From a virus: a stretch of 64,000 nt of DNA. The DNA lies in the IMG/VR virus record IMGVR_UViG_3300005529_000006, positions 1-64,000 of that record, one strand, 5' to 3'. Numbering within the stretch: position 1 is the first letter of the stretch; each line of letters starts with the position of its first letter. The notes beneath the pieces were generated by a model, which saw nothing but the letters and a program-made list of their open reading frames with translations, was not told where the DNA came from and searched no databases. Positions 3,489 through 59,873 of the stretch are shown piece by piece. Both the position numbers and the translations under genes were made by a program.

Positions 3489-3785
3489 ACACAGGCTTCG
3501 TCTTTGCTGCCACAAAGCGGCAGCAGAATAGAAGTGATAATCCTGCAATAAGGGGCCTATTCGCTTTCTCGGTTTTGAGCGACATCTACCTCTCTGATAC
3601 TCCCGTTTCATGTGACATGAGCGACAGACTGGCTCAACATCCAAGGGGTAGTCGTAACCAAGGTAGTGGTCGTAATCTCGCGCTCGACCGCCGCAGTCGG
3701 TGCAAGATAGCGATTTAGCTGGAGGGATCTTCCCTCGCTTTACGTAGTTCTTAATGCGCTCTCGCGCACGTAATTCCTTGGTCAT
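3480..3785 (-). CDS. zinc-finger protein (CTDCGG...CRSCH)
   Basis: ORF with Cys4 motif; ends ...CPT* inside the 19-bp motif. Confidence 0.45.
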   Translation of the reverse strand: MTKELRARERIKNYVKRGKIPPAKSLSCTDCGGRARDYDHYLGYDYPLDVEPVCRSCHMKREYQRGRCRSKPRKRIGPLLQDYHFYSAAALWQQRRSLCPT

Positions 3786-3947: not shown

Positions 3948-4106
3948 TCACTTCTGTAACTCCCGAACGTTCTCACAGTATCCTTCATACATCAGGATGC
4001 TTTCTTCCTCTGCGAGCCGTCCGACATGAATCCCCCCACAATTTTCACATTCATACATTGTGAAGGGAGCTTTACTTAGTTTGTTGAGCTTATTCGCCAG
4101 GTTCAT
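3948..4106 (-). CDS. small zinc-ribbon protein (start taken at internal Met)
   Basis: C-terminal YECENCGGIHVGRLAEEESILMYEGYCEN; trimmed to avoid the overlap with 4130..4456. Confidence 0.3.
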   Translation of the reverse strand: MNLANKLNKLSKAPFTMYECENCGGIHVGRLAEEESILMYEGYCENVRELQK

Positions 4107-5094: not shown

Positions 5095-5350
5095 CGGCGA
5101 CCCATGTGTGGGCACAACATCACCCAAGTGGTCGATTCTGTCTCTCTCACTACCCCCCTGAACACCTAATTCCAACTTCGAGTGGGCACATCTTTACCCA
5201 GGTGGTAGAATCTGTCACTCTCTCTTTCCCCCTTAACCCCTTTAGAATCCTATAAATAAATAAACACCCAAAAAGAGAGAGACATATCTAACCACTTGGG
5301 CGTAGTTGTGCCTAAATTTCAGGACTTACCACTTGGGCAACTTGTGCCCG
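5095..5350. repeat. repeat cluster: two ~60-bp direct repeats starting GTGGGCACA(A), then two inverted partial copies (ACCACTTGGGC..TTGTGCC)
   Basis: Repeats at about 5108-5165, 5182-5240, 5291-5312 and 5328-5350. The same GGGCACAA core recurs at 56759-56950. Confidence 0.6.
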
Positions 5351-5561
5351 AATCTTGGTAATACTGACAATGATTGTTCCCTTCCGCGTCCAGTCCACCT
5401 CTTTCATTGAACCCGAAGTGTTCACATTCCTCCGGGATGAACTGTTCTCCAGTAGCTTGCAACCACACTTCGTTCATGACCACACCTAGGTGATGCTCCG
5501 TCCAAGAGTGGCCGCAAACACATATGCCCGAACATTCCGGCCCACTGTATCTAGGATTCAC
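5319..5561 (-). CDS. Cys/His-rich small protein, candidate anti-sigma or zinc-binding partner of the sigma factor
   Basis: Its start overlaps the sigma gene end by 11 nt; motif CSGICVCGHSWTEHH. Confidence 0.45.
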   Translation of the reverse strand: MNPRYSGPECSGICVCGHSWTEHHLGVVMNEVWLQATGEQFIPEECEHFGFNERGGLDAEGNNHCQYYQDSGTSCPSGKS

Positions 5562-6424: not shown

Positions 6425-6658
6425 CTATGCGACTCCTACCCCTTGATAGGCCATGCTCCCCACTGCCACCTGTACCACCTCCTGCCCACAAGTCATACAC
6501 CTGACTGTAAGCACTCCAGTAGAGCTATACGCGACATCCAGCCCCGTACCGGGATGACACTTACTCGTAAGCAGCATCTCTTCATGCTTTCCACCACAGT
6601 GCGTACAGCCTTTGTCCAGCGACCCGTCCAAATCTTCACGAAACTTTATTTTTGCCAT
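6425..6658 (-). CDS. zinc-ribbon protein (CTHCGG...CMTCGQ)
   Basis: ORF with two CxxC pairs. Confidence 0.45.
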   Translation of the reverse strand: MAKIKFREDLDGSLDKGCTHCGGKHEEMLLTSKCHPGTGLDVAYSSTGVLTVRCMTCGQEVVQVAVGSMAYQGVGVA

Positions 6659-6721
6659 GTCTTATCCTTTCCCTGAGGAATCCAATCAAAATTGCTAGGC
6701 CCAAAATAATGAGCCCAATCT

Positions 6722-8149
6722 TCAAAGCACTCCTATGCCAAGCTTGGCGCACAACATATCAAGATCATGGCAATGTATGAACTGCTTGTTCTTCAGTGCT
6801 CCCTTGAAGAGTTCATCCGTCGCCTTCCGGAAAGAGTCATCTCCTGTCCATCCAGTATCCGTTACAAAGTACCTGGGGGCAGGCTGTTTCAATAACCACT
6901 GAAGCGCAGGGAAATCAATATAGTTCTCCCCATACCTGAAGGGTAGTTTTCCTCCGCCTTGATGCTTATAACGTCTGCCTTTCTCGGAGTAGATAGCCAA
7001 GGTGCCGTTGTACTGGATACAAGGGTCCCCCTTGCTATCCTTAACAGCCTTCCCATTCTGCCCCGAGTAATACGCCACCGTACCCAAGGGGATCTTCTCC
7101 GCCACAGCCTGGAGCTGTCCATCAGGAATACTCATACTCCCCGACGCATCAATCAAAACCGTCCCGCCATTCAGATGTTTCGCTCTTCGCAAAAACATCC
7201 TTGGCGGAGCAGGACTAATCGCAAGCGCCAACTTCTTCGCCCGAATCTTCATGCCTGCCATGACCAGCTTCTCGCTTGGCCCCTTGAAGGTGGCTTCACT
7301 GGTGGCCTTCTGCGCCATGTGCTCGATCTTCATGCGCGGGTAACCATCGGGCTTGGACATGATGTCTTTAATCGAACCGCCCGACAGATAGTCCGTGGCG
7401 TCCCCCAGAGAAAGGAAGTTGCTTTTCTCCTCTTCCCTTTTCTTGCCCCCTCCACGTCCCCATCCCCGCGTGGTCATCTTCATCAGCTCTCTGGGGCTTT
7501 GCATCTTGGCCCCAGTGAAGAACTTCTCGATGATTCTCCGAGCCGCCGCCTTGTTGTCTTTCTTCAGGTAGTCCAAAGCAGAATCAATTGCATCCCGCGC
7601 CAATTGCCCGTTCCCAAATAGCGGCATATCTGGGTCATAGAAGTGCCCTAAATCTGTACACTTCTGAAACAACTTATCCGCCAATTCTGGATGAGGAACA
7701 TCCCCTCCCTGCATCATGGCCCTGGCTCTCAAGGCCACAAGAAATGCAGCATCCTTCATGCCCAAAGGCATATACCTGATCGACCGCAAATCCAAGTAAG
7801 CCATGGTCAGCTCGTCCCGCCTGACCGAGCCCCTGGTCTGTGCGCACTTCACATGCAAATACGCATCTTCCACAGCCTGACTCAGGAAACTCTGATCGAC
7901 AGAAGCCTCCCCTGAATAAAGCGCATGAAGAGATTCATGAAGTCGAATTGTTCTGCCCACTGCATCTTCAAAGGTGGGGAGGATGGCCTCTTTCTTTTCC
8001 GGACTATATCCCCCCATAACATTGTTCAGCGGGTCGGCCTGTTTGACCTTGACCTTCGCCCCATCCTCCTTAAGCCTGTCCTTGAAGAGTTCCAACACCT
8101 CATCGACGTTGGACTTCAGGTACTCCGCACCGAAAACCTCTTCACTCAT
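6722..8149 (-). CDS. VWA-domain protein (CobT-like partner of the MoxR ATPase)
   Basis: MIDAS motif VLIDASGSMS in the C-terminal half; 475 aa; coupled by an ATGA overlap to the upstream Cys-rich ORF. Confidence 0.65.
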   Translation of the reverse strand: MSEEVFGAEYLKSNVDEVLELFKDRLKEDGAKVKVKQADPLNNVMGGYSPEKKEAILPTFEDAVGRTIRLHESLHALYSGEASVDQSFLSQAVEDAYLHVKCAQTRGSVRRDELTMAYLDLRSIRYMPLGMKDAAFLVALRARAMMQGGDVPHPELADKLFQKCTDLGHFYDPDMPLFGNGQLARDAIDSALDYLKKDNKAAARRIIEKFFTGAKMQSPRELMKMTTRGWGRGGGKKREEEKSNFLSLGDATDYLSGGSIKDIMSKPDGYPRMKIEHMAQKATSEATFKGPSEKLVMAGMKIRAKKLALAISPAPPRMFLRRAKHLNGGTVLIDASGSMSIPDGQLQAVAEKIPLGTVAYYSGQNGKAVKDSKGDPCIQYNGTLAIYSEKGRRYKHQGGGKLPFRYGENYIDFPALQWLLKQPAPRYFVTDTGWTGDDSFRKATDELFKGALKNKQFIHCHDLDMLCAKLGIGVL

Positions 8150-8727
8150 GACTTCCTCCGTTTGCAGTTGCCATCTTCGTCGAAATGATCTGTTAGATCG
8201 GCGTTAAGCCACCGGTCGCCTTTGCGCCAAAAGGCTCCGGAGCAGTAGCCGCAGTTAGTAGGCCAATAGCCCTTCTTCACCAGCGCCCCCGCAGGAATAT
8301 AACAATCGGGTTCGCCTTCGCTTGGTGCCCAATTATGGTGTTCCCCCCAAGACTTCCCGCAGTTCGCACAAGGCTCCTTCGAGTTCCTGTCATCAAACGT
8401 TGCCCCACAGACCATACATCCCATCCCATCACATACACATGGTTTGTAAATGACTATGGGCTCGAAAGAACAGCCGACCCCTCCTTTTGTTGTATGCCTA
8501 CCTGCATGTTTCCCACACTTCTTACAACGCGCACTGTATGGATAACCGTAGCTGCCAACAGTGAGAGGATCGCCGGAGGGATACTCTTTCCTGTATCCCT
8601 CCGTATCCAGCACAACCACTTCCCCCTCACTTGTTGTCCAGGTCTCAGCTACGTCCCCTAAAAACCGGGGTGAGTCAAATACCCCTTGCCTCCAGGACAC
8701 TTCATGGCCTCTGAACTCCCCGCCCAA
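8146..8727 (-). CDS. Cys-rich protein with repeated CxxCG..W.EHH zinc-binding units
   Basis: CKKCGKHAGRH, CANCGKSWGEHHNW, CGYCSGAFWRKG; sits between the AAA and VWA genes. Confidence 0.45.
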   Translation of the reverse strand: MGGEFRGHEVSWRQGVFDSPRFLGDVAETWTTSEGEVVVLDTEGYRKEYPSGDPLTVGSYGYPYSARCKKCGKHAGRHTTKGGVGCSFEPIVIYKPCVCDGMGCMVCGATFDDRNSKEPCANCGKSWGEHHNWAPSEGEPDCYIPAGALVKKGYWPTNCGYCSGAFWRKGDRWLNADLTDHFDEDGNCKRRKS

Positions 8728-9707
8728 CTATGGTCGTTGGCAGTGAGGCCACAGTTTCTACATTTCACACTTGAGTAATCATTGGGCAGATACCCTTGCT
8801 TCGAGCCCCCATCCTTTCCATGTGGCCCATTCCTATGCGGACAAGTCTGCCCAGGGCCAAACTCCGGATGAGCAAGGTGCGCTCCCTGTTGTTCCCCACA
8901 GTAATAACAGGGGCTGCTCGTATCAGGAATCTTTCCCTTATATCTCGCAGCCGTGGTCAGTACCGACAGAATCTCTTTCCCCGTCGTTCCAAACACACTC
9001 TCCGCGATCTGTGTCTCGCACAGAATCTCCGCCTGCTTGATCTTGGCGAAAGCCCGCATCCGGCGCAGCGTGGGTTTAGTAGAAAACTGCCACGGAGCAG
9101 GAGCCACGTTCTTGAAATGGTTCTTAACCGCCGCAGCTTGCGCCTCATCCAACCCGGTCAGCGCATCGGGATGAGGGTCTTTGGCAATCAAAACCGCCTC
9201 AAACCGATCAATGATGGCTTCCGGCAGACTGGCCAAGTTCGCATTAGTAGTGGCAATCACCACATACCCCTGCTTCGCCTTGACCATCTCTCCGGTGGGG
9301 AGCATAATCTGCGGAGCGTCATCCAGGAACGCATACATCAAAGACGCGATCTCACTTGGATGGTGGTCGATCTCGTCAATGAGCAGAGCCTTCCCTTCCC
9401 GGAGGGCTCTCGTTCCTGGGCCATCAACCCAAACGGTTTCCCCTTCCCGGAGCTGATACATCCCCACAATGTCCTCCACTCCCGTGCCTTCCGTCATGGT
9501 CAGACGGTAATCACTGCGAGTGACCTCTACTGCGGTGCGGCTTTTGCCCGTTCCCGGAGGGCCACAAAGCAAAATCCGGTTGCTCCCGCTATCCACCAGT
9601 GCGGGAAGGGCCTGGTACCATGCCACACTACGTGCAAACTTCGTCGCTTCGCTCATCTTCAGTAGCTCCTTCGATCTCTTCTTTTTCGTTCTCAATGACG
9701 TAGCCAT
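8658..9707 (-). CDS. MoxR/CobS-like AAA+ ATPase (AAA_5) with a Cys/His-rich C-terminal tail
   Basis: Walker A LLCGPPGTGKSRTA, Walker B LLIDEIDH, sensor ATTN, IDRF; C-terminal CYYCGEQQGAHLAH...CRNCGLTANDHSW. Confidence 0.7.
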   Translation of the reverse strand: MATSLRTKKKRSKELLKMSEATKFARSVAWYQALPALVDSGSNRILLCGPPGTGKSRTAVEVTRSDYRLTMTEGTGVEDIVGMYQLREGETVWVDGPGTRALREGKALLIDEIDHHPSEIASLMYAFLDDAPQIMLPTGEMVKAKQGYVVIATTNANLASLPEAIIDRFEAVLIAKDPHPDALTGLDEAQAAAVKNHFKNVAPAPWQFSTKPTLRRMRAFAKIKQAEILCETQIAESVFGTTGKEILSVLTTAARYKGKIPDTSSPCYYCGEQQGAHLAHPEFGPGQTCPHRNGPHGKDGGSKQGYLPNDYSSVKCRNCGLTANDHSWAGSSEAMKCPGGKGYLTHPGF

Positions 9708-10373: not shown

Positions 10374-10404
10374 GCTTCCTTCGTTTACTTCTACCCAATA
10401 AAAA

Positions 10405-10436
10405 AGCCCACCCTTTCGGGTGGGCCTTGTCTGCCT
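10405..10436 (-). terminator. rho-independent terminator (minus orientation)
   Basis: Stem GCCCACCC/GGGTGGGC with loop, followed by UUUUUUAUU on the minus-strand transcript; about 38 nt after the SPFH gene stop. Confidence 0.55.
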
Positions 10437-33597: not shown

Positions 33598-34109
33598 ACT
33601 TCCTAAAAAAGATTCTCCCCTGGATTGGAGCAGCTGCTACGGGCAACGTCCCGGCGCTTGTGTCCATGGCCGCGAACGCGGTTAGCGGAGCCCTCGGTAA
33701 CAAGGTTGACTCCAGCGTCGATTCCATTGTCTCCGCAGTGCAAGGCGCAACACCCGAACAGCTCGTAGCCTTAAAGCAAGCAGAGTTGGATTTTCAAGCC
33801 AAGATGCAAGCTATGGGCTTCTCTCACGAAGAGGAGCTTGCTCAGATTGAGGTCGCAGATCGCGACTCGGCTCGGGCCCGTGAAATCAGCGTTCGTGACT
33901 TCATGCCCAAGGTTCTCGGTGGGGGAGTGGTCGCGGGTTTCATTGTCGCTACGTTCCTCATCCTCACAGGTCACGGCAAAGCCGATAGCGTGATGGCCGG
34001 AACCCTTATTGGTTATCTCTCCGCAAAGGCAGAGCTTGTCCTCGCCTACTACTTCGGTAGCTCCGCTGGATCTGACCGCAAGACAGAACTCCTCGCCCAA
34101 GGTAAGTAA
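33594..34109 (+). CDS. holin-like membrane protein (resembles 3-TM GTA-type holins)
   Basis: Gly-rich N-terminal helix, ADRDSARARE motif, C-terminal TM segments; position after the lysin. Assignment from recollection. Confidence 0.4.
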   Translation: MNFLKKILPWIGAAATGNVPALVSMAANAVSGALGNKVDSSVDSIVSAVQGATPEQLVALKQAELDFQAKMQAMGFSHEEELAQIEVADRDSARAREISVRDFMPKVLGGGVVAGFIVATFLILTGHGKADSVMAGTLIGYLSAKAELVLAYYFGSSAGSDRKTELLAQGK

Positions 34110-37100
34110 TGAAGAAATACATTCTCCTGTTATTTTTGCTTGTCCCACTATTTGCTTGGGGACAAGCCAGTCGTGTGGATGGTCAGGTACTGGGGCCGAA
34201 CGGTCAGCCCGTTCATTTCCCCCTGGTCCGCGTTTGTACGGATACTTCTAACCTTGGTTCTGGGACGGTCTATTGCGGAACCACAAGCGGGGGACTAAAA
34301 ACCCTATTCACCGACATAACTGCTCAGGTGCAGTGTACCGGGTCCAACGGTTGTGCCAATCCGATCACTGGCGACTATAACGGCAACTACCATTTTTATT
34401 CCGCCCCTGGTAAAGCCATCGTTGAAGTTATTGTCAACGGTGTAGTTCAGGGGGATACCCCTGACACCATCATCCCCTGTGATCCCGATTTCAATTGCGG
34501 AACAGGCACTGGAGGTTCGTCCAGTATTCCCTTGGGTTCGCAAGGGCAATTCATTCAGTACACCGGAGTCGGAGATCTCACTAATCAAATCGGTCCCTCC
34601 AACATGCGGGATCTCACCGGCACTCTCACAATCCCAGATGTCTCGAATGTGGACTTTGGGGGACCGGGGGTAGGCAGTGCGCAGTTTAGTATGCGCGGGC
34701 TTAACTCTGGATTGGTTGTGGTTCGCGTGCAGGACGCGGCAGGTAATTACACCCTAACTTTACCAAACGGTCCTGGGCTAGCTAACCAAGTCCTAGCCAC
34801 AGATGGTGCAGGCAATCTCTCCTTTGTGACCCCTGCCGCAAGCGCTGTAGGTGCAGGCGCAGCCGGACAGGTAAGCGTCTACAACGGTCCTAATAGCGTA
34901 GGTGGTGACGCTCTCTTTACAGACTCAGGCAACACCCTCGCCTATACAGGCACCACCTTCACCCTCGGTAATGCTACCGCTGGAGTATTTAATACCTTTG
35001 ATGGTTTTAGTATAAGCACTGGGACAGGCATTAAGGATACAATCTCCAGCGGCACTAGCACCTCCGCTGGCCTTACATCCGGCAGGCACCTTATCATTCA
35101 AGCCCACGCCGGAACATCCACAGGCTTTGGAGGAGACCTATATCTCCAAGCTGTAGGTTCTACTTTCTCTGGGAACCAATCCTTCTCTCCGGGATGGGTC
35201 TATGTTCTGGGTGGAGTAAATACTGGCTCTAGCGGTGGCGGCATCGCCTTAATCCCCGGTGTGGGGAACACCACTCCTGCTTACGTCACAATAGGTTGTA
35301 ACGCCTCCAACGGCAGCCCTTGCGGCTCTCCGGGCAATCCTTCCAACCCCACAATCACTGGCAAGGTGGCGTTCGTAGGCAAGAATGGCGGCTCGGTCTT
35401 CTTGACCGTGCCGGACAACGTGGGTGGAGCTGTTACCTTAACGCTCCCTACCTCCACGGGTACGAATGGCCAAGTGATCTGCACGGACGGCACGGGAGTG
35501 CTGAGTTTCTGTAACCAAACTGGCGGAGGCGGGAGCGTATCTGGAAGCGGTACTACCAACACTCTTCCTAAGTTTACCGCTGCTACGGTCCTCGGAAACT
35601 CCGGCATCACGGATAACGGAACAACCGTCAACACAGCGGAGAACCTCTCGGTTGCATCCTCGACCGCTGCTACAGGTATTTCAAACGTCAACTCTCCGTT
35701 CTTTCAGGTCGCAGGCAACTCTTGGAACGGCGCGTCTGTCGCAGATGTCTGGAGCTTCCAGAACGTCGCTGGCGCAGGCACAAACCCCACCCAAACGCTG
35801 ACGATTACTCATAGCGGCTCAAGTGGTGCAGCCTCGATCTCGGCTGCCTTCCCCTTCACTATTGCGGGCTTAACCAGCACAGGCAACGTCAACTTAGGTG
35901 GAGCCTCTTCGGTAATCAACTCTACGCTCGGGAACGGCGCTCCCAACAACGCAACTTGCATTTCCACTGGACAGGAATACTTCCAGTTGGACGGGACCGC
36001 AGGGCAAGAGAAGTGGTATTGCAAGGGCAACGTCTGGACTCAGCAACTCAACTCAGGTGCGGCTGGAGCTAACGTCCAGTTAAGCAACCTCTCGGGTACG
36101 ACCGCGATTCCAGTCGCCCTTTTGCCAAACGCGGCTGGCACCTTGGCCTTCGGTAGCAACGCGCTCCCTTGGACCAGCGTGTTCATCGGTGGTGCAGCCA
36201 CAAACAACATCCAGCTTACGGGCACCGCAACGAGTGCTAAGGTAGCCACTCTCCCAGACAACACAGGCACGATTGCCGAATTGAATCTGGCGCAGACGTG
36301 GACTGCCAATCAAACATTTCCGGTTGTAATCTCTTCAGCCGCCAATCCAGCCAATGCCGGGTTTCTCCGCTTCTCGTCTGGAGATGCCCTCAGCTTCCGC
36401 AACAATGCGAACTCTGCCAATGTCAACGGCCTGAGCAAAGATACCTCGGATATTGTCCAAGTAGGCGATACGGCGGGTATCAAGCTAGCGGGTCCCCTCT
36501 CTAGCGTGGGCGCTGGCTCCGCACTGACGATTCGACCCACTCTGCAAACTGTCAATGGCACGGGTGGGGATTTGACTGTCGCCGCAGGTAATACCTCCGG
36601 CACAGGGGCCAACGGCAACCTTCACCTTTTGGCGGGCTCCGGCGGTTCTGGTACTCCCGGCGCAATTGACATCGGAACTTCCCCGTTCGCTGTCACTCTT
36701 CCAAACGACACTAGCAACGGAACTCTGCAATTCAATCTTGTCAGTGTTACCTCCACTGGCAACGCGATTCAAACCCCTGCTGGCTCCAATGCAGGCGTAG
36801 TTGGTATTGCGATCAGCGGCGCAGGCACTTCCGGTAGCGCAACCGTTGTCCAGCTCGGCCAGGTCAATTGCGTATTCGATCAGGCTGCCACACCTGGAAA
36901 CTATGTTGGCATCTCCGTTAGCAATAATGGGCAGTGCCATGATATCGGTGCAGTTCCAACTATCAACACTCAAGCCGTTGGAACAGTCTTGAGTTTGGTA
37001 TCGGGCACGACCTACAAGGTCCTCGTTGATCTCGGCTCGGCTCCTGGGGCGAACAGCAACAATACTGTCATCACTAACCCCGGCAGTACACAGCAAATCC

Positions 37101-39094
37101 AAGCTACCGCGCCTACCGCTGTTTCTCTTGTTGTAAAGCAACCTACCAGCGGGTCGGTTGATATTTTCCAAGTCCTGCTAGCCAACGGCACCAAAGCTTT
37201 CTACGTAGACAGCACGGGTGTTGTTCACTTCGGAACCGGGACTTCTTCGGTCACGTCTTCGGCGTTCATTAGTTCCGCTGCTAACCCTGCGGCTACGGGA
37301 GTTTTCCGTGCGGCATCTTCGGACGTTGGATTGGCTTTCCGCAACAACGCAAACACTGGCGATGTCACGATTGCCAAGAACAACTCCGATGTGTTGACCT
37401 TCAATGGCACTCCCGGCTTCGCGGTTACACAAGCCGGAGCAAGTTTCGGAGACACTGTATCCTTCACAACCCCCGCAGCAAACCGAACTATCACCTTTGC
37501 TGACCCCGGTGGGAATGACAGCGTGGCTTATCTCGCTGCGACCCAGACCTTCACGGGTAAAACTATTGGCACGGGTGGCTTGCTATTCGCTACCCAAACC
37601 GCTCCCGGCAACCCCGCTGGCGGCAACATCCTCCTGTATGCAGATAGCGGCACTGGCAACCTCGCTTGCTTAACCTCTGCTGGCGCAAACTGCTTGCCCT
37701 CTGCTGGAGGCGGCGGCACCGTAGCACTTAGCGCGATCACGGCTGCTACCAGTACACCCGCTGCTATTAACAACGCTAACTTCCCTCAGAAATGGAACTG
37801 GCAGCTTACGACCAACGGCACCAGTGGATTCACCTTTGGCGAGTTCGCAGCATCGACTGCCACTAGTTCTAACCTAGTAAACATCAAGACTCTCGCCTCT
37901 TCCACGTTAAACCCGTTGACCATTACTGCACTGGGCAACGTAAACGGACTTCAAGTAAACAACATCGGTGATCTTACCTTCTTGGGTACGGGCATGTTGG
38001 ATACTGGAACATCCTCCCAGACAGGTAGTGAGTGTGCCAATGAAGGTGTTACAGGTACAACCAACGGCCTCGTCGCCAAACTTAACACTTCCAACCAATG
38101 CATCAAGGCCACTACGTCTGATGTAGCTGGCGTGGAAGGTATCGTCGTCAAGGGCGGCGGCACAAGTGGTAACGCTGTCATCGCTACCTCCGGCGTGGTC
38201 AGTTGCACGTTTTCCAATACCGCAGTGGTAGGAGATTACGTTGGTGTCTCGACTACTACGGGTGGTGACTGCTTAGACTTAGGCTCTCAGCCTACCGCAG
38301 GCACACAGGTCTTAGGACGGGCGTTGACTGCTGGTGCAGGTAGCCAATCTGTCCTCGTCTACGGGCGCGGGATGCTTGCAATCACAGGCGTACCCAACCG
38401 CGTCACTACAGCCTTCGCTGGTGGTGTTCTTACTCTGTCTCTCCCTCAGGATATCGCCACCACATCAATCGTCCAGTTCGGCGGAGTTAAGAGCGGCACT
38501 TCTGGTATTTCCGGCTCCAGCGGCACCAACTCTTACGATGTCCGTTGCGGCATTGATGGCACTGCTTCTCAGGTCTGTGTGCTCACGGTTCGTGGCGCAG
38601 ACTTCTCCGGCACTGGCAACAACAACGGCGGTGCCTTCGTAGCGAGAGGCGGAAACACTGGCTCCAACGGTTCAGGTGTTGCCGGGAACGCTGACTTCCA
38701 AGCTGGACAAGACACAGGAAGCGGCGGAAACAACGGTCACATTCAGATCGACGGCGCTTATGTCAAAGGCGCTACCTACACTACTGGAAACACTCAATGC
38801 TTCACTGCTGACAATACCGTTCAGGATTGCGGCACTAGCGCGGTGAACTTCGTAGGTGTGGCTGTAAGCTCCAACGGCAGCTCCGCCATAGTCGCTCTCT
38901 CCGGCACTCAAGTCCTCGTCAACTATGACGCAACCGTTAGCCCCTCAGCGGGATGGTTCGCGTGCTCAAGCGCCAGCGTAGCTGGCAAAGCCACTGCCCA
39001 ATCAGGAGCTTGCTCCGCAGGCAGAACCATTGGAGTCATCGAAAAAGGTGGAACGAATGTTACGAGCGGTAACGTTACTCTGGCTCATTTCTAA
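34109..39094 (+). CDS. giant fiber-like protein (1661 aa) with N-terminal signal peptide
   Basis: MKKYILLLFLLVPLFAWG|Q; Gly/Thr/Ser/Ala-rich with internal ~300-aa repeats (SSAANPANAGFLRFSSGDALSFRNNANSANV / SSAANPAATGVFRAASSDVGLAFRNNANTGDV). Confidence 0.6.
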   Translation: MKKYILLLFLLVPLFAWGQASRVDGQVLGPNGQPVHFPLVRVCTDTSNLGSGTVYCGTTSGGLKTLFTDITAQVQCTGSNGCANPITGDYNGNYHFYSAPGKAIVEVIVNGVVQGDTPDTIIPCDPDFNCGTGTGGSSSIPLGSQGQFIQYTGVGDLTNQIGPSNMRDLTGTLTIPDVSNVDFGGPGVGSAQFSMRGLNSGLVVVRVQDAAGNYTLTLPNGPGLANQVLATDGAGNLSFVTPAASAVGAGAAGQVSVYNGPNSVGGDALFTDSGNTLAYTGTTFTLGNATAGVFNTFDGFSISTGTGIKDTISSGTSTSAGLTSGRHLIIQAHAGTSTGFGGDLYLQAVGSTFSGNQSFSPGWVYVLGGVNTGSSGGGIALIPGVGNTTPAYVTIGCNASNGSPCGSPGNPSNPTITGKVAFVGKNGGSVFLTVPDNVGGAVTLTLPTSTGTNGQVICTDGTGVLSFCNQTGGGGSVSGSGTTNTLPKFTAATVLGNSGITDNGTTVNTAENLSVASSTAATGISNVNSPFFQVAGNSWNGASVADVWSFQNVAGAGTNPTQTLTITHSGSSGAASISAAFPFTIAGLTSTGNVNLGGASSVINSTLGNGAPNNATCISTGQEYFQLDGTAGQEKWYCKGNVWTQQLNSGAAGANVQLSNLSGTTAIPVALLPNAAGTLAFGSNALPWTSVFIGGAATNNIQLTGTATSAKVATLPDNTGTIAELNLAQTWTANQTFPVVISSAANPANAGFLRFSSGDALSFRNNANSANVNGLSKDTSDIVQVGDTAGIKLAGPLSSVGAGSALTIRPTLQTVNGTGGDLTVAAGNTSGTGANGNLHLLAGSGGSGTPGAIDIGTSPFAVTLPNDTSNGTLQFNLVSVTSTGNAIQTPAGSNAGVVGIAISGAGTSGSATVVQLGQVNCVFDQAATPGNYVGISVSNNGQCHDIGAVPTINTQAVGTVLSLVSGTTYKVLVDLGSAPGANSNNTVITNPGSTQQIQATAPTAVSLVVKQPTSGSVDIFQVLLANGTKAFYVDSTGVVHFGTGTSSVTSSAFISSAANPAATGVFRAASSDVGLAFRNNANTGDVTIAKNNSDVLTFNGTPGFAVTQAGASFGDTVSFTTPAANRTITFADPGGNDSVAYLAATQTFTGKTIGTGGLLFATQTAPGNPAGGNILLYADSGTGNLACLTSAGANCLPSAGGGGTVALSAITAATSTPAAINNANFPQKWNWQLTTNGTSGFTFGEFAASTATSSNLVNIKTLASSTLNPLTITALGNVNGLQVNNIGDLTFLGTGMLDTGTSSQTGSECANEGVTGTTNGLVAKLNTSNQCIKATTSDVAGVEGIVVKGGGTSGNAVIATSGVVSCTFSNTAVVGDYVGVSTTTGGDCLDLGSQPTAGTQVLGRALTAGAGSQSVLVYGRGMLAITGVPNRVTTAFAGGVLTLSLPQDIATTSIVQFGGVKSGTSGISGSSGTNSYDVRCGIDGTASQVCVLTVRGADFSGTGNNNGGAFVARGGNTGSNGSGVAGNADFQAGQDTGSGGNNGHIQIDGAYVKGATYTTGNTQCFTADNTVQDCGTSAVNFVGVAVSSNGSSAIVALSGTQVLVNYDATVSPSAGWFACSSASVAGKATAQSGACSAGRTIGVIEKGGTNVTSGNVTLAHF

Positions 39095-42062
39095 TGCCCT
39101 AGCGTTTGGACAGGGCATTACAGCCACTGGCAACGCCACTGCATCAGGCACACAGACAGTCTTTCAAACACAGGTAGCTTCTGCACCGCCTCCTCTGGCG
39201 TTTACGACTGTCTGCCCGTTACCTACTGCCAACCAGAATCAGACCTATGCGACCAACCTGAACGCTACGGGGGGCCTTGCCCCCTATGCATTTAGCATAG
39301 CGTCAGGAACACTCCCAACAGGTTTGAGCTTGGCTGCAAGCGGAGCTATCAGCGGTACGCCTAGCGGGACGGGGACATCGGTGGTGAACTATCTCGTCAC
39401 TGATTCCAGCACTCCAGTTCCCCAAACGGCGCAACTTAATAGCTGCTCGATCACTGTCAGCCCTGCTCCTCCCCCTCCCCTTAGTGTCAATACCTCCCCT
39501 CCTCCCCCTGCGGGTTTTACAGGGGTAGCGTATAGCTACACCTTCAGCGCGACAGGTGGAACTCCGCCCTATACCAACTGGGCCATTATCAGCGGCAATC
39601 TGCCGAATGGTCTTAGCCTGAATCCAAGTACCGGAGCTGTATCCGGTACGCCAACTACCGCCCAGACTTCCTCGTTCACTGCACAAGTGATGGATTCAAT
39701 TGGAGCCACGGCCAATGCTCCCTTCAGCATCACCATCAACCAAGTGACTCCATCTGGAGGGACAGCCGACGAGCCACACCTTTGGGCCGACCCTCATGAA
39801 GTGGATTCGTCTATCGCAAGCCCCGCTGTCACGCGCTATTGGGGTGCTACTTCCACTGGCTGCCCAACCAACACAGGCAGTGTATGTAACTACGTTGGTG
39901 GCAACTTCACTACGTGGCAGAACATAGAAAATGATTATTGCGCAGACCTAGACAGGGACTGGAAGGTTGTAGTTACCCACCAGCTTCTAGTCTCAGGTCA
40001 TGGCCCTGTTAATCTATGTGCCAAGACAGGAGCCACGCACTTCATCTCCTACATCTCGGATAGCCCCAACCCCTCCAAGGTAACCGTTTGCTCGGGAGGG
40101 ATTAACGACTCTAACCAAGTTGGTCTAGACCCCGGCTCGCGTAACTACCAATGCGCCAACGGCACATGGCTCTCCCATATGTGGACTGCTGAATGCACAG
40201 GCTACTCTGGCAGCAAAGGTTGTGTCATCAGCGCCAATGCAGTAGACGGCAACGGCAAAGGCCCACATCATCATGCGTTCTTTGATGCGGAAATCCGGCC
40301 TAACACATCCATCGGCACGGCAATCCAAGTCTTCATGATCGACCAAGGGGCGGCCTTAAACTCTGCTGCCTCAAATGGCGAAGCCGAGCATATGTGGTAT
40401 TTCCGTAACTACTGGCACGGCACCATTCCCGACAATCCTGTATTTCCAAATCCCGGAACCTACATCAACATCTCAAACTTCATTCGTATGGAATGTAAGT
40501 TCTGCGGAATCATGGATAGTTACATGGACCAAATAGGGTGCTCTCAAGGCTGTGAGAGCCACATCATACTATCCGTAAGCGCCCACGGACCCGAGCGCAT
40601 CGAGCACAACTGGGTCGAAGGTTCCAGTGTCCCTCTCTTCCAAGGAGGCGGGTTGCCCGCCATCGCGGGGACGGTAACCAGTGACGTTGAAATTCGACGT
40701 AACAGATTCACGCGCTCCACTACGTGGATTTCAGCCACGCCTTGTTCTACTGGAAACTTCTTGGACGTAAAAGGAATCGTGGAGCTTAAAGAAGGGCAGC
40801 GAATCCTTCTTGATGGCAACATCTTCGAGAACAACTGCGGTGGTGGTCAGGAAGGTCAGACCATGACCCTCACGCCGCGTGTCGGTTCTGGTCCGTCAAA
40901 CTTCGATGGCTACACTGAGCGGCTGGACGACATTCTTGTAAGCAACAGCATCATGCGCCACTCGGCGACATTCGTTCAGACGGATTCTACATCTGGCGGA
41001 GTTGGAAATGGCAACGGCGTCGGTAACCCTGGTCGTAGGTGGACGTTCATTGACATCCTAGGCTATGACTTGGGAACGGTTTATGGAACGACCACAGCTT
41101 ACTTCTTCAAGAACGTCCAGAGCCGCCACAGTTGGACGGGCTGCATAGCTACCCGTAACGCGGCTGGCACGTCGTCAACCATAGACTGCACAGCCAGTCC
41201 CAGTACTGCCACGGGGCAACTTCAAACTGACATCCTTCCGGGTGATGCGGTATGGGTCAATACTTGCGCTAGCGGCGGGCCAAATCCAGACCCAAGCCCT
41301 ACCAGCTTTCAGGTAGGCAATGGTTCTTTGGGTCCGGCCGCAACCAGCGTCACCAACTTAACTGTGACCTATCCCAACCCCGGAGCCGCGAGCAAGACGG
41401 CTTCGTGTACCTTGGTGGACCCGCAAGGATTCGTGGATGGTCTTAGCGCACGCCACATCACACTCGTCGCTGTCCCCCAGTCCATTAAAGGCGCAGGAAA
41501 CTGGACAGCGCCAAGCTACGCGTCGACGGGCAACATATCCTTCAACAAAAACACCACATACCAAGACGACATCTTCGCCGTCAATGGCAGCTACGGTGGA
41601 TGGGGAGATAGTCTCTCAGCTCCTGGACATGAAGGCACAATCACCGAGAACTACCAAGACACTGCCACTTTAGTTGGCAATCACTTGCTGTTCTCCATGT
41701 CTCGCCCGCTGAGTCAGTACACAGAGTACGGCGGTCCCAACTCTGGGGCAAAGCCTCCTGTAACTATCTGGTCCCCTGCTAACATTAGCTGCGCAGGTGC
41801 CTCGGCTGACTCCACCTGCTTCGGCTTCACCAACATGCGGAGCGGGGCAGCCTTCAACGTGGCGGACTCCGACTACCACGGGTACGCCCTCCACAGCTCC
41901 AGCCTATATAAAGCTGGCGGTTCTCGCCAGGCTTCTGACGGCACTGACATGGGCGCTCGCATTCCTAACATCGACAACGCCCTGACTCGTCCCCAATACG
42001 TCTGTACCAACTCCTCGAAATGCACCCAGAACGGTACAGTCCATGGACCTTACGTTTACTAA
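39030..42062 (+). CDS. tailspike-like protein: Ig-like (He_PIG-type) repeats plus a predicted beta-helix
   Basis: LPTGLSLAASGAISGTPSG and LPNGLSLNPSTGAVSGTPTT repeats. The N-terminus (MLRAVTLLWLISNALAFG|QG) is encoded in the frame overlapping the end of the previous gene, so the start is uncertain. Confidence 0.5.
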   Translation: MESSKKVERMLRAVTLLWLISNALAFGQGITATGNATASGTQTVFQTQVASAPPPLAFTTVCPLPTANQNQTYATNLNATGGLAPYAFSIASGTLPTGLSLAASGAISGTPSGTGTSVVNYLVTDSSTPVPQTAQLNSCSITVSPAPPPPLSVNTSPPPPAGFTGVAYSYTFSATGGTPPYTNWAIISGNLPNGLSLNPSTGAVSGTPTTAQTSSFTAQVMDSIGATANAPFSITINQVTPSGGTADEPHLWADPHEVDSSIASPAVTRYWGATSTGCPTNTGSVCNYVGGNFTTWQNIENDYCADLDRDWKVVVTHQLLVSGHGPVNLCAKTGATHFISYISDSPNPSKVTVCSGGINDSNQVGLDPGSRNYQCANGTWLSHMWTAECTGYSGSKGCVISANAVDGNGKGPHHHAFFDAEIRPNTSIGTAIQVFMIDQGAALNSAASNGEAEHMWYFRNYWHGTIPDNPVFPNPGTYINISNFIRMECKFCGIMDSYMDQIGCSQGCESHIILSVSAHGPERIEHNWVEGSSVPLFQGGGLPAIAGTVTSDVEIRRNRFTRSTTWISATPCSTGNFLDVKGIVELKEGQRILLDGNIFENNCGGGQEGQTMTLTPRVGSGPSNFDGYTERLDDILVSNSIMRHSATFVQTDSTSGGVGNGNGVGNPGRRWTFIDILGYDLGTVYGTTTAYFFKNVQSRHSWTGCIATRNAAGTSSTIDCTASPSTATGQLQTDILPGDAVWVNTCASGGPNPDPSPTSFQVGNGSLGPAATSVTNLTVTYPNPGAASKTASCTLVDPQGFVDGLSARHITLVAVPQSIKGAGNWTAPSYASTGNISFNKNTTYQDDIFAVNGSYGGWGDSLSAPGHEGTITENYQDTATLVGNHLLFSMSRPLSQYTEYGGPNSGAKPPVTIWSPANISCAGASADSTCFGFTNMRSGAAFNVADSDYHGYALHSSSLYKAGGSRQASDGTDMGARIPNIDNALTRPQYVCTNSSKCTQNGTVHGPYVY

Positions 42063-43277: not shown

Positions 43278-46200
43278 ATGTCGATCTACAAGTCCCCCCT
43301 TCGCCCCTTTGATCCCATCATTGTGGACGATCAGCCTGTCCCGATAAGTCGTTACTTCCGTGATGACTTCGCCGGGTCGGGACAGGACAGTTTTACCGAT
43401 CCCCCTGCTCAAGATCAGAGCATGTGGCAGAAGCTTGTCAACATCATGCCGATTGCGTCTGGGACCATTAAACGACGCTTTGGGTACGCGAGCCTCAGCA
43501 ATTTTACGTTCGCCTCCGGGGTGGTTCCCCAACATCTCTACACCTACCAGAGAGACATAGACGGCCTGCGGAAGATCCTGGTCTCCACCACACAGCCCGT
43601 CCCTGGGAGCCAGTCAGCGCTAGTCGCTCCTTACGACATGCTCTCGTTCATGGTCCTCGATCCCACGCTTCGAGGCAGCTTCCACTACACAGGTGTGAAG
43701 CCGCTCAAGACCATGAACATCACGAACGTTCAGGTCCAGAACAACGTCGTGACATTGACGGGAAACAACACTGTAGCTGTAGGCGACTTCCTGTCTGTCT
43801 CTGGACTATCGGTGGCGACGTTCCTCAATAGTGCCACAGGTTTGCAGGTTGCCAGTCGAACTCCGACCCAGATCACCTTTAACTTCAATCACGCCAATCT
43901 TGCATCAACGCCTGACACTGGCACCGCAATAACCAAGAGCGATCACACCTACTTCCAAATCGACGCCAGTAGATTCTGGTGGATCAAGGGAGATGGCAAC
44001 AATCCTCCCGGCACGGGAGGCTGGCCCTGGGACATCAACCTGTATGACAGCAACTTCATCTACCTCTCGGTTACAGAGCTTAATTTCTCTAGCCCGAACG
44101 ATTGCAAGCGCCAAGAGTCGCTCAATCCGTCAATCGGTCTTAAGGGCTTGCCGTTCTGCAAACGATTCTCCACACCTGGAGACTTCGTACTTTCCCCGGA
44201 ATCGGTTCGAGTTGTCCCTTACAGCAACGGAGTTGCACAGCCTGCTTTCATTCTTGGACACACTCGATGCGAACTGCACGGGCCGTTCCTAAATCAGAAC
44301 TTCAACTCTCCCGGTAATGGGAATCTTCCTCCCAACCTCACTACTCTCGAAGTTCACTATCGTTGGGGTGGAACCGATCCTTCGCCCGTCTACAACACCC
44401 GCGAGATCTATACCTTCGCCTGGGACCCGACCACAAACATTCGATACGGTCTGATTCAATGGCAGACTGCCAATTGGAACGCCACCACTCAACAGTACGA
44501 TCCTCCGAACGACTGGTCTCTTCACAATAATCTTGTCGCGGGAGTTACGGGCCTGCCTGCCTTCGATCCCCAGGGATTCGGTGGCGGTCCTGTCAGTGGC
44601 AATCCTCCTGCCTTCGTTGACACTACTTCCGGGGGCAGCAACATCATTGCCCTCAATGAGGACGGTTCGATCTATGCCAGTGGCGTTTCTTCCGCTACCG
44701 TCCCGCTACCTTCGGACTCTCCCCGTGTAGTTGTCTCCCGGAACTCCGCCTACATCTACGGCACCCAAGGTAGCAACACCAAATGGGACGGGAACGTTGA
44801 TCCCAACGGAAACGCTACCGACGTTACCAAATGGGGCATAGACGTAAACAACGTCGGCAATAGCAGCTTCGGACCTAATCTCCCCACCACCTTCCACGAC
44901 TTCGGGGACAAGGGAATCCCCTGGAGCAATCCCAACAACATCCTCCTAGACGATGGACAGGTTGCTACTGTCACCCAGATTGCACCCGGCGTAGCAAACG
45001 CTCTAGGCGCTGGCACGTTCAACATGAACGCCGCTGGCAACATCCTCGGTCTCAAGGTGGACGTTAAAGCCGCCATCAGCTTCAATAGCTCAGGCATTAC
45101 TTTCGTCCGACCTACAGCTTTCGTAGGCACCAGCAACCAGAACGTTTCTCCTTTCGCCAACCCGCAGAACGCAATTGATGGCCTGGCCAGCACCAGCTCT
45201 ACAGGTTCCGGACACTACATCAAGGTCCCCGATCCCGGCACCCATCAACTTACAGTAGAAGAAGTTCTTGCAGTAGAGACTTGGAAAAGCTTCCCCGCTT
45301 ACACCGGGCCCGCTGCATCTGCAATCAACCTGAAGATAACCTGGTCTTCGAACTTCACCACTGGTGGCAACACACAATTACGCTTGAGTGTAGATGGCGT
45401 GAACTTCACCACTATCGCCAGTTCTAGCTCTAGTGCCCCCCAAGGGCTGACTACTCTAGTCTTCCCCCTGGCCGTCAATCAAGACCTGACTAAGCTTCAG
45501 ATCATAGGGCAGGCTGCTGTAGACGGTACAAGCAGCACAGGCTTGGCTTCGTTGACGATTGTGGATATCTGGGTGGAAGTCACTGGCCCGCAGACCAACG
45601 TTCCACCTAACACCAACCTGGTCATTACCCTGCTCAAGGGCGGTCAGATCTACGGACAAGCCAAGTCACTGGCCCTCACCAGCGGCACACTCTCCACCTT
45701 AACTTATGGTGGAACCACCGATCTTTGGGGCGGGGTGTGGAGTGCAGCGGACATTAACGATCCCAACTTCGGAGTCCTGATTACCGATCAGAACAACGCA
45801 GTCGGGGTGACCACCATCTCGATTGATTCTGTAAAGGTCACGGCCTATACCTCGGGCGCAGGAGTAACCCTCTCCAACTTGAGCAACGCAGGAAACGTGG
45901 TGCTCACGGTAGGCAGGGTCTACTATGTGGCGTTCAAGAACAGTTTGACCGGGCACATCAGCGATCTCTCTTTCCCGAGTGCCTCCACTGGTCCCTTAAC
46001 CAATAAGGCAATCACTCTGGGGCTCCCCGTTAATCTTGATCCTCAAGTCACCTCCAAGGTGATCCTTGCCACCGCAGACGGTGGAGATCCTTCGGTCTTG
46101 TTCCTAGTGGCAGAGGTTCCCAACTCCACTACCTCTTTCGTGGATAACACTGTGGAGACTTCGCTGGTCGTTAACCAGCAATATCTCTTCACCGATGAGT

Positions 46201-59211: not shown

Positions 59212-59873
59212 TGGAACCTGCGGTAGCGGTTATGCAACGTCACCACATGCCCTCGATACTCCACTCCCCCTCCACAAGTGGAGCACTTGGCCCGGTCTTT
59301 AACTACCCTGGGATGAGCTGTGTCATAAGGCTGGAGCCTCAGATAAACTTGCTCCAACGTCTGCACGTCTTGGGCACAATACTTCGCCATGTCATGAATG
59401 GCTTCCTTGTCTCCCGCCAGAGCCCTCAGCCACCAGCCCGGCCACTCACTGGGACAATCCTTGTGGTACTTCTTTTCATGGCACCCGAGAATGTCCGCAA
59501 GATGAACCAACCTGTTGCTGGAGAACTTGAAGGTCTTGTAGGCGATATACCAGGTATCGCGCTGCTTGGCTGGCGGAGGAGGCGTCAGTCCGTTGATAAG
59601 GCAACGACCAGCCAGGAATGGCTTGTCAAATCTGTCGCCATAATGCGCAACCAGAACGTCTGCCTCCTCCATAATTTGGAGGGCTGCTTCAAGCAGCCCT
59701 TTGTCACTAATCCCTTTCTTGGGATTGAACCAATCGGGAAATTCATCCACTGTGAGGACGTGGGCTTTCTTTTCCCCGAGCCACTTGTAACCGAAGCACA
59801 CAATAGTGCTCAGGTCTGCATTGAGAGAATTGACACCTGCGGTTTCCAGGTCCCAAATGAGTATTTTCTGCAT
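59163..59873 (-). CDS. stand-alone DEDDy 3'-5' exonuclease (PolB-exo/RNase H-like) with C-terminal zinc finger
   Basis: Exo I ILIWDLETAG, Exo II HYGDRFDKPFL, Exo III YCAQDVQTLEQVY; CSTCGG...CLDCG. Confidence 0.65.
   Translation of the reverse strand: MQKILIWDLETAGVNSLNADLSTIVCFGYKWLGEKKAHVLTVDEFPDWFNPKKGISDKGLLEAALQIMEEADVLVAHYGDRFDKPFLAGRCLINGLTPPPPAKQRDTWYIAYKTFKFSSNRLVHLADILGCHEKKYHKDCPSEWPGWWLRALAGDKEAIHDMAKYCAQDVQTLEQVYLRLQPYDTAHPRVVKDRAKCSTCGGGVEYRGHVVTLHNRYRRFHCLDCGKWGRETKAAP

What the first reader, a model, noticed from the sequence alone, without database searches (positions are those of the whole stretch)
6722..9707. MoxR-AAA + VWA (CobS/CobT-like) pair embedded in the early operon
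The gene order is AAA_5 ATPase, then Cys-rich protein, then a 475-aa VWA protein with an intact MIDAS (DASGS), all translationally coupled. CobS/CobT-like pairs are known from some marine phages but their role there is unresolved. Here the pair carries extra zinc modules and sits beside a sigma factor and an SPFH protein, which suggests a chaperone/remodelling or host-takeover function rather than cobalamin synthesis.
Basis: partly seen in the sequence, partly recalled or inferred. Interest (0 to 1): 0.55.

Follow-up and report, generated by a model that had tools for sequence, protein, structure and literature searches.

The report
Phage CobS/CobT-like ATPase–adaptor pair
A phage operon encodes a MoxR-class AAA+ ATPase and a divergent CobT-like partner that keeps a zinc-protease-type HExxH motif which the one cellular cobalt-chelatase CobT examined lacks, so it is more likely a protein remodelling or cleaving machine than a vitamin B12 gene; the kind of pair is already described in phages.

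Summary
On the minus strand lie an AAA_5 ATPase with an intact ATPase site (8658-9707), a 13-Cys ORF (8146-8700) and a 475-aa protein (6722-8149) carrying DASGS.

It has H71-E72-x-x-H75 plus E94-D95, complete in 137/147 relatives. It is homologous to the N-domain of the cyanophage "peptidase"/CobT (90-93%). A Burkholderia CobT next to a true CobS has GAALR at that site.

The same AAA_5 family sits directly upstream in 84 of 86 loci. The sigma factor (1/110) and SPFH (2/110) neighbours are not conserved.

The parts
8658..9707 (-). MoxR-class AAA+ ATPase (AAA_5), 349 aa (332 aa if started at 9656)
   Evidence: Pfam AAA_5 5e-18; PDB midasin, NorQ and CbbQ; catalytic residues conserved in 36 homologues; gene call in L001.
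9540..9563 (-). Walker A motif GPPGTGKS (residues 49-56 of the 349-aa form)
   Evidence: Read from the translation; G32, P33, P34, G37 and K38 of the 332-aa numbering are invariant and G35/T36 are in at least 90% of sequences.
8658..8939 (-). Cys/His-rich C-terminal tail of the ATPase, with two C-x2-C-G-x(n)-H...C-P modules
   Evidence: Translation; motif scan. Homologues carry Cys-rich extensions at the N- or C-terminus, while the nine that lack Cys altogether are 234-314 aa, mostly minimal forms.
8146..8700 (-). Interposed Cys-rich ORF (184 aa, 13 Cys; 157 aa if started at GTG 8619 behind a GAGGGGG Shine-Dalgarno-like site), an orphan protein
   Evidence: No family or homologue found in the libraries searched; the last large-database protein search was not spent on it. 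An analogous 91-aa Cys/His ORF lies in the same position in L046 and L048.
6722..8149 (-). CobT-like partner protein, 475 aa: N-terminal HExxH domain, disordered linker, C-terminal VWA/MIDAS domain
   Evidence: Homologues; AlphaFold2 model, mean pLDDT 84.8; hhalign to phage and cellular CobT.
7505..8149 (-). N-terminal domain (residues 1-215): three short strands, then a helix carrying HExxH and a helix carrying E94-D95
7925..7939 (-). HESLH (H71-E72-x-x-H75), putative metal-binding/catalytic motif
   Evidence: H71 in 142/147, E72 in 143/147, H75 in 145/147.
7865..7870 (-). E94-D95, candidate third metal ligand on the next helix
   Evidence: E94 in 139/147, D95 in 143/147; aligned with ED, EE or EQ in phage, plasmid and cellular CobT.
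7412..7474 (-). Disordered Gly/charged linker (residues 226-246)
   Evidence: pLDDT below 50. The region is of variable length and is often long and acidic in homologues.
6725..7357 (-). VWA-like domain of CobT_C type (residues about 265-475), including the pre-MIDAS segment
7136..7150 (-). MIDAS D-x-S-x-S (DASGS, residues 334-338)
   Evidence: 147/147.
6914..6925 (-). N409...D412 (NYID), taking the place of the MIDAS Thr loop; resembles the N-I-D of CobT_C proteins
   Evidence: 147/147; compare EDNIDGES in L009 and EGIDGEA in Burkholderia CobT.
6857..6859 (-). D431, last MIDAS aspartate (VTDTG)
   Evidence: 147/147.
10403..10428 (-). Strong terminator-like hairpin (11 pairs, T-run) between the SPFH gene and the unit that contains the trio
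   Evidence: This is a consensus scan only, and the count in the region is not above the shuffles.
6695..6718 (-). Weaker terminator-like hairpin immediately after the stop of the 475-aa gene

Best explanation
The locus encodes a two-component machine of the MoxR-class AAA+/VWA type, a divergent and unannotated branch of the 'cobST-like' gene pair found in tailed phages and plasmids. Shown: the ATPase has an intact catalytic site. Its partner has an invariant MIDAS in a CobT_C-type VWA domain, a flexible linker, and an N-terminal CobT-N-like domain that keeps an HExxH...ED triad. The two genes are almost always adjacent. Inferred mechanism, by analogy with NorQ/NorD, CbbQ/CbbO and midasin: the ATPase forms a hexamer and the partner's VWA domain docks on it. 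The MIDAS-bound metal captures an acidic residue of a target protein. ATP hydrolysis then twists or stretches the linker, which remodels the target and presents it to the N-terminal domain. That domain most likely binds zinc and cleaves the target, so the pair would be a split AAA+ protease. The Cys/His modules on the ATPase tail and the interposed Cys-rich protein are lineage-specific accessories, probably Zn-ribbon adaptors for recruiting a target or a nucleic acid. The target is unknown. The position in early or replication-side gene blocks points to a host or phage protein handled before virion assembly. It is not a cobaltochelatase.
For: ATPase identity and integrity. Partner family: 2650 clusters, no Pfam model. 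MIDAS invariant in 147/147 and HExxH+E/D-D complete in 137/147. Good models. The best alpha/beta fold match is the NorD VWA domain from the NorQ-NorD complex. Homology to the phage 'peptidase'/CobT N-domain: hhalign 90.5-92.8%, E 4e-7 to 1.4e-6, and the family HMM hits the S-WAM2 protein at 7e-9. Link to the CobT_C pre-MIDAS segment: 85%, E 6e-6. A plasmid protein with HEVAH passes Pfam CobT and CobT_C, so the HExxH domain is the CobT N-domain. The cellular Burkholderia CobT, next to a CobS that has CobS_N, has GAALR instead of HExxH. Obligate pairing: 84/86 loci. Mechanistic template: NorQD finger-in-pore and linker twisting (PMC13036017). A MoxR + metallopeptidase-vWA pair has already been proposed in T4-like jumbo phages (PMC7824862). 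CobT-like proteins occur in 1024 plasmid records, mostly from Klebsiella, E. coli, Acinetobacter and Yersinia. E. coli and Y. pestis do not make corrins de novo (established knowledge), which argues against a CobN-dependent role for the superfamily.
Confidence: 0.55

Rival explanations
1. Genuine viral cobaltochelatase subunits. The pair acts as CobS/CobT, hijacking the host CobN to raise cobalamin supply during infection (the hypothesis of Liu et al. 2021 for viral cobST clusters).
For: Remote homology of both proteins to CobS and CobT. The published proposal says cobST clusters are widespread in tailed viruses and that cyanophage cobT is mis-annotated as a peptidase (PMC8651126).
Against: There is no CobS_N, CobT, CobT_C or NCBIfam CobS/CobT match, although a real cellular pair gives them. 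The HExxH motif is conserved here but absent from the cellular CobT examined. Chromosomal copies are stand-alone two-gene cassettes with no cob genes nearby. The related pair is common on plasmids of hosts that have no CobN (plus established knowledge).
Confidence: 0.1
2. A metal-insertion chaperone like NorQ/NorD or CbbQ/CbbO. The HExxH...ED site does not cleave anything; it holds the metal ion that the motor inserts into a phage or host metalloenzyme.
For: The nearest solved relatives are NorQ (9e-17) and the NorD VWA domain, which insert iron by ATP-driven remodelling. A His/His/Glu triad is a generic metal site. No protease fold was detected.
Against: HExxH with an invariant Glu after the first His is the catalytic signature of zincins, not only a ligand set. 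No candidate metalloenzyme client is conserved next to the pair.
Confidence: 0.15
3. A virion-assembly chaperone/protease. The pair folds or processes structural proteins, as proposed for the MoxR + metallopeptidase-vWA pair of jumbo phages and shown for the p618/p892 pair of Acidianus two-tailed virus.
For: Published proposal (PMC7824862). The window phage encodes four very large structural-side proteins (1010-1672 aa) with no family match, which might need chaperoning.
Against: In the window and in six of the seven related phage loci whose gene tables were read, the pair sits in the block transcribed away from the terminase, portal and capsid genes. Often it is the first gene pair of that block, next to replication genes. 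It also occurs as a stand-alone cassette in bacterial chromosomes with no phage genes nearby.
Confidence: 0.15

Closest known systems
cobST-like gene pair of tailed phages and plasmids (cyanophage CobS + 'peptidase'/CobT; the 'porphyrin biosynthesis protein' + AAA ATPase of about 100-120 kb plasmids of enterobacteria and Acinetobacter, including Y. pestis pMT1)
   Same: An AAA_5 ATPase lies next to a protein with an N-terminal HExxH...ED domain, a linker and a MIDAS VWA domain. N-domain homology is 90-93% by hhalign. The position is in replication-side modules.
   Different: Gene order is reversed: here the ATPase comes first. The partner is much shorter (475 aa against 719-764) and has no long acidic linker. 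The plasmid proteins pass Pfam CobT and CobT_C, but the window protein does not. Like the cyanophage protein, it matches no Pfam model, and neither of those two families is covered. The ATPase lacks CbbQ_C and carries a Cys/His tail, and a Cys-rich ORF is interposed. There is no tblastn match in 50,697 deposited phage records.
MoxR AAA+ / vWA-with-N-terminal-metallopeptidase pair of group 2.2 jumbo phages (Iyer et al. 2021, PMC7824862)
   Same: The same described architecture and the same prediction of a chaperone combined with peptidolytic processing.
   Different: That pair was described in T4-like jumbo phages and assigned to virion assembly. Here the genome is about 67 kb and the pair lies in the early/replication-side block. 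Direct sequence comparison with the cited proteins was not possible.
NorQ/NorD and CbbQ/CbbO (CGN subfamily of MoxR ATPases with VWA partners)
   Same: These are the closest solved relatives of both components. The partner is also built as N-domain, linker and VWA, which gives the likely docking and linker-twisting mechanism.
   Different: They have dedicated cellular clients (nitric oxide reductase, Rubisco) and no HExxH domain. The CbbQ_C domain is absent here. The finger-in-pore contact was not tested for this pair.
Aerobic cobaltochelatase CobS/CobT (cellular)
   Same: Remote homology of the ATPase core (94%, E 9e-8) and of the pre-MIDAS/MIDAS segment (85%). The N-domains align.
   Different: The cellular CobS has CobS_N and the cellular CobT passes Pfam CobT and CobT_C; the window proteins do neither. 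The cellular CobT examined has GAALR where the window protein has HESLH.
Acidianus two-tailed virus p618 (MoxR) / p892 (VWA)
   Same: A viral MoxR-VWA chaperone pair, cited as having experimental support (citing Scheele et al. 2011).
   Different: It is from an archaeal virus, has no peptidase domain and acts in extracellular tail development. It was not compared by sequence here.

Membership tests
MoxR-class AAA+ ATPase (Pfam AAA_5; dynein/midasin/CbbQ/NorQ/CobS group) | Matches the AAA_5 model above its threshold | tested here: met
   65.8 bits against a cutoff of 22, E 5e-18.
MoxR-class AAA+ ATPase (Pfam AAA_5; dynein/midasin/CbbQ/NorQ/CobS group) | Intact Walker A, Walker B, sensor 1, arginine finger and sensor 2 | tested here: met
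   GPPGTGK, D94 (at least 90%) with invariant E95, N138, R151 and R198/R199 are conserved in 36 homologues.
MoxR-class AAA+ ATPase (Pfam AAA_5; dynein/midasin/CbbQ/NorQ/CobS group) | Adjacent VWA-domain partner gene | tested here: met
   84/86 loci have the pair adjacent on one strand.
VWA domain with MIDAS | D-x-S-x-S ... T ... D metal-site residues | tested here: met
   D334, S336, S338 and D431 are invariant (147/147). The Thr position is taken by an invariant N409, as in the N-I-D of CobT_C proteins.
VWA domain with MIDAS | Matches a VWA sequence model | tested here: not met
   No Pfam hit for the window protein. Only single weak hits among 39 members: VWA_2 0.0067, VWA_CoxE 0.008, DUF2201 0.12.
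VWA domain with MIDAS | Rossmann-like VWA fold | tested here: inconclusive
Cobaltochelatase subunit CobS | CobS_N domain, or an NCBIfam CobS equivalog match | tested here: not met
   Absent; present in the Burkholderia CobS control.
Cobaltochelatase subunit CobT | Pfam CobT (N) and CobT_C (VWA) matches | tested here: not met
   None for the window protein at E up to 0.1, and neither family is among the 25 of 29 listed for the 39 members. Both matches are present in the Burkholderia CobT and in plasmid CobT-like proteins. Only remote hhalign links exist.
Cobaltochelatase subunit CobT | Works with CobN in a host that has the aerobic cobalamin pathway | not testable with these tools
   The host is unknown. 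No cob genes are in the window's early region or beside a chromosomal homologue.
Zincin (HExxH) metallopeptidase | HExxH on a helix plus a downstream acidic third ligand on the next helix, preceded by a beta-sheet | tested here: met
   H71-E72-x-x-H75 lies in helix 63-78 and E94-D95 in helix 88-102, with strands 34-57 before them. The motif is complete in 137/147.
Zincin (HExxH) metallopeptidase | Zincin fold, or a match to a peptidase family | tested here: not met
Zincin (HExxH) metallopeptidase | Zinc binding and peptide-bond hydrolysis | not testable with these tools
   Needs biochemistry.
RavA-ViaA / MoxR-proper (AAA_3) and GvpN | Match to the AAA_3/RavA or GvpN models | tested here: not met
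   AAA_3 scores 18.2 bits, below its cutoff of 27. GvpN scores 15.2 bits against a cutoff of 266.8. There is no RavA among the PDB hits.
Known anti-phage defence systems (PADLOC) | Match to a defence-system protein model | tested here: not met
   Only P-loop-length hits to IetA (23.6 bits); nothing for the other two proteins.

The most novel reading that the evidence does not exclude
The HExxH-bearing form may be the working, and perhaps ancestral, state of all mobile-element 'CobS/CobT' pairs. On this reading they are split AAA+ zinc proteases that phages and phage-plasmids deploy early to capture a specific host protein through the MIDAS site and cleave it; the target could be a defence, transcription or replication factor. 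The cellular cobaltochelatase CobT would then be a catalytically dead offshoot. If so, one of the most widely reported viral 'auxiliary metabolic genes' is mis-assigned.
Probability: 0.2. Interest if true: 0.75.

Novelty: new variant of a known kind. Interest (0 to 1): 0.42.

Why it matters
cobS/cobT-like genes are routinely counted as cobalamin 'auxiliary metabolic genes' in viral metagenomics. They are core genes in cyanomyoviruses, and related CobT-like proteins sit on more than a thousand plasmid records, many from clinical enterobacteria and Acinetobacter. No function has been shown for them.

This locus adds a large family that no Pfam or NCBIfam model tested here recognises (about 2650 clusters at 50% identity, mostly viral). 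It also adds a simple discriminating character: HExxH is conserved in the mobile-element proteins and is absent from the one cellular CobT examined. That argues the viral pairs do something other than cobalt chelation.

The question is directly testable by metal content, point mutants and MIDAS-dependent pull-downs.

The idea that phage MoxR-vWA partners carry a metallopeptidase domain is already published, so the advance is incremental.

Tried and rejected
- Pfam, PHROGs, NCBIfam and PADLOC scans of the 475-aa and Cys-rich proteins gave nothing usable.
- phmmer and profile searches against PDB sequences gave no significant hit.
- Foldseek of the full model against the PDB gave only noise. The afdb50 library was unavailable.
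- hhalign of the C-domain against the cyanophage VWA aligned only the MIDAS strand, at 9% probability.
- tblastn of the 475-aa and Cys-rich proteins against deposited phages found no match.
- A functional link to the neighbouring sigma factor or SPFH protein was rejected after the synteny survey.
- A duplication relationship between the ATPase tail and the Cys-rich ORF is supported only at short-motif level (E 0.037).
- Membership of a known defence system was rejected.
- Literature searches found no experimental function for phage or phage-plasmid cobST-like genes.
Full report
**What is there.** The window is most of a tailed-phage genome. The same proteins occur on a 67-kb metagenomic contig. 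Terminase, portal and major capsid genes are on the plus strand. DNA polymerase, primase and many small genes are on the minus strand. At the reported coordinates three minus-strand ORFs are packed together:
- 8658-9707, 349 aa (332 aa by an independent gene call starting at 9656);
- 8146-8700, 184 aa with 13 Cys;
- 6722-8149, 475 aa.

The stop of the second ORF overlaps the start of the third (ATGA). The first two either overlap by 43 nt or are 38 nt apart, depending on which GTG is used as the start.

**The ATPase.** It matches Pfam AAA_5 (E 5e-18). Among solved proteins it is closest to the AAA modules of midasin, to NorQ (9e-17) and to CbbQ. In an alignment of 36 homologues, most of them 46-63% identical over the core, Walker A, Walker B, sensor 1, the DRF arginine and two sensor-2 arginines are invariant or nearly so. 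It is therefore very probably an active motor.
- It does not reach the thresholds of AAA_3 (MoxR proper), GvpN or CbbQ_C, and it has no CobS_N domain.
- Cyanophage CobS proteins are only 26-30% identical over about half its length.
- Its last roughly 95 residues carry two C-x2-C-G-x(n)-H...C-P modules.
- Homologues carry Cys-rich extensions at either end; the nine with no Cys at all are 234-314 aa, mostly minimal forms.

**The 475-aa protein, C-terminal half.** No Pfam, PHROG-with-function, NCBIfam, PADLOC or PDB-sequence match exists. It does define a sizeable family: 40 relatives in the word-indexed search, and 2650 clusters at 50% identity in the exhaustive profile search, 1591 of them at E <= 1e-30. 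In 147 aligned members D334, S336, S338, N409, D412 and D431 are invariant. This is a MIDAS site with Asn in place of the usual Thr.

hhalign of the family profile against a cellular CobT aligns the segment just before and through the MIDAS strand at 85% probability, E 6e-6. The N-x-x-D element also resembles the N-I-D of CobT_C proteins. I conclude that the C-half is a divergent VWA domain of the CobT_C type.

Residues 71-75 read HESLH, and residues 94-95 read ED on the next helix. Three short strands precede them. The full pattern is present in 137 of 147 relatives. This is the sequence signature and local topology of a zincin metallopeptidase.

**Relation to CobT.**
- Upstream of cobS in cyanophage S-WAM2 lies a 719-aa 'peptidase'. 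It has HEVGH...IEDARIE at the N-terminus and LDWSGSM...TDG at the C-terminus.
- hhalign of the window family against 16 members of that family gives 90.5-92.8% probability (E 4e-7 to 1.4e-6) over the strand/HExxH/ED core. The window-family HMM hits that protein at 7e-9 in a local ORF set.
- A 764-aa 'porphyrin biosynthesis protein' on an Enterobacter plasmid has HEVAH...AVED. It passes both Pfam CobT (6.5e-20) and CobT_C (5e-73). The HExxH domain is therefore the CobT N-domain.
- By contrast, on a 2.4-Mb Burkholderia multivorans replicon a CobS with CobS_N is followed by a CobT that passes both Pfam models. That CobT reads GAALR where the mobile-element proteins read HExxH.

So the window pair is CobS/CobT-like at superfamily level, but it fails every direct membership test for the cobaltochelatase subunits. 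It also keeps a putative catalytic motif that this one cellular enzyme lacks. Only one cellular CobT was examined.

**Comparative context.**
- Of 110 related loci (viral contigs, metagenome contigs and MAGs), 86 have at least 1.2 kb of upstream DNA. In 84 of these an ATPase of the same family lies directly upstream on the same strand.
- The family is mainly viral: at least 198 IMG/VR contigs against 22 loci in 185,579 species genomes, all of them MAGs.
- It also occurs as a stand-alone cassette among ordinary metabolic genes on a 963-kb Myxococcota contig.
- In six of the seven related phage loci whose gene tables were read, the pair lies in the block transcribed away from the structural genes, and in several it is the first pair of that block.
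- A sigma-factor homologue is nearby only in this window, and an SPFH homologue only here and in one other locus.
- In the window, terminator-like hairpins at 10403-10428 and 6695-6718 bracket a unit of two small genes plus the trio. SPFH and sigma are left outside it (this is a consensus scan only).
- The interposed Cys-rich ORF has no detectable homologue. A 91-aa Cys/His ORF with a similar CxxCG.xWEH knuckle occupies the same position in L046 and L048.

[quoted passage not shown] ATP-driven rotation then stretches the linker between the VWA and N-terminal domains to remodel the client. The authors presume this mode to be general for AAA+ proteins that work with VWA partners (PMC13036017).

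The window partner has the same three-part build: N-domain, disordered linker (residues 226-246, pLDDT below 50) and VWA. I therefore infer a hexameric motor docked on the VWA domain, MIDAS-mediated capture of an acidic residue of a target, and ATP-driven remodelling that feeds the target to the HExxH domain.

Shown: component identities, conserved sites and obligate pairing. Inferred: docking mode, proteolysis, and the nature and timing of the target.

**What is known, and novelty.** Liu et al. 2021 reported that cobST clusters are widespread in tailed viruses, that cyanophage cobT is usually annotated as a peptidase, and proposed hijacking of host CobN (PMC8651126). Iyer et al. 2021 described a MoxR ATPase with a vWA partner fused to an N-terminal metallopeptidase in T4-like jumbo phages, and proposed virion assembly with proteolytic processing (PMC7824862). 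The kind of system is therefore known.

This locus is a compact, unmodelled variant of it. The gene order is ATPase-first, zinc-type accessories are added, and the setting is a mid-sized phage genome. CobT-like proteins occur in 1024 plasmid records, many from E. coli and Yersinia, which do not synthesise corrins (established knowledge). Together with the HExxH contrast, this weighs against the cobalamin reading for the superfamily.

No experimental function was found in the searchable literature.

**Verdict.** I classify the locus as a new variant of a known kind, of moderate interest.

Noticed in passing
L010 383-1423 and 1423-2811 (Methylobacterium sp. AMS5 plasmid pAMS5a): A split CobT-like system. 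The HExxH CobT N-domain (HEVGH...FEDTFIE; Pfam CobT 8e-12) is fused to a C-terminal sigma-70 region-4 HTH (3e-6). The CobT_C VWA domain is a separate downstream gene, and a MoxR ATPase lies four genes further on, next to dnaE. This is a second, independent juxtaposition of this domain with sigma-factor parts.
   Followed up: partly
window 3666-3704, 4026-4049, 6584-6607, 8335-8370, 8494-8526, 8730-8762, 8868-8909, 59247-59285, 63680-63709 (all minus strand): A C-x2-C-G-x(2-8)-H knuckle recurs in several small early-region ORFs, in the ATPase tail and in the interposed ORF. ORF 5319-5561 has a related CVCGHSWTEHH. This phage's early proteins appear unusually rich in small zinc-type modules.
   Followed up: partly
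window 34109-39094, 39030-42062, 43278-47282, 50292-55310 (+): Four very large ORFs (1661, 1010, 1334 and 1672 aa) in the structural block have no PHROG match at E <= 1e-5.
   Followed up: no
window 10403-10428 (-): A strong intrinsic-terminator-like hairpin (11 pairs, 7 of them G-C, followed by TTTTATT) lies just downstream of the SPFH/Band_7 gene. It suggests that gene ends its own transcription unit.
   Followed up: no
P0002 and P0006 (closest relatives, 39% and 35% identical); also P0105, P0107, P0190: These members have lost the HExxH residues (for example RLQVAVR and RLNAALH) while keeping a perfect MIDAS. The N-domain may therefore work without catalysis in some lineages.
   Followed up: partly
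L039, L040, L042, L052, L053, L061, L077, L080 (IMG/VR contigs): In these loci the region between the ATPase and the VWA match is a long ORF with no evident HExxH, apparently a different N-terminal domain on the VWA protein. The N-domain may be exchangeable within the family.
   Followed up: no
L005 1310-3469 (Synechococcus phage S-WAM2) and relatives P0210-P0329: The cyanophage 'peptidase'/CobT family returned at least 8000 clusters at 90% identity (the scoring limit). None of the 120 listed has a precomputed Pfam domain, despite a clear HExxH and a DxSGS/TDG MIDAS.
   Followed up: partly
L004 5519-7789 (Gordonia phage Phendrix gene 101, annotated 'AAA-ATPase'): This 756-aa protein has no Pfam hit. 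It reads IHETGH...FEELRCED, then a Gly/Glu-rich linker, then TDVSGSQ...ITDG. It is therefore a CobT-like HExxH-VWA protein, not an ATPase. The true AAA_5 ATPase is gene 103.
   Followed up: partly
L035 5004-5669 and 1240-2364: In one related phage-like contig a ThiF-family (E1-like) gene lies immediately upstream of the ATPase-VWA pair, and an nSTAND3/AAA gene lies nearby.
   Followed up: no
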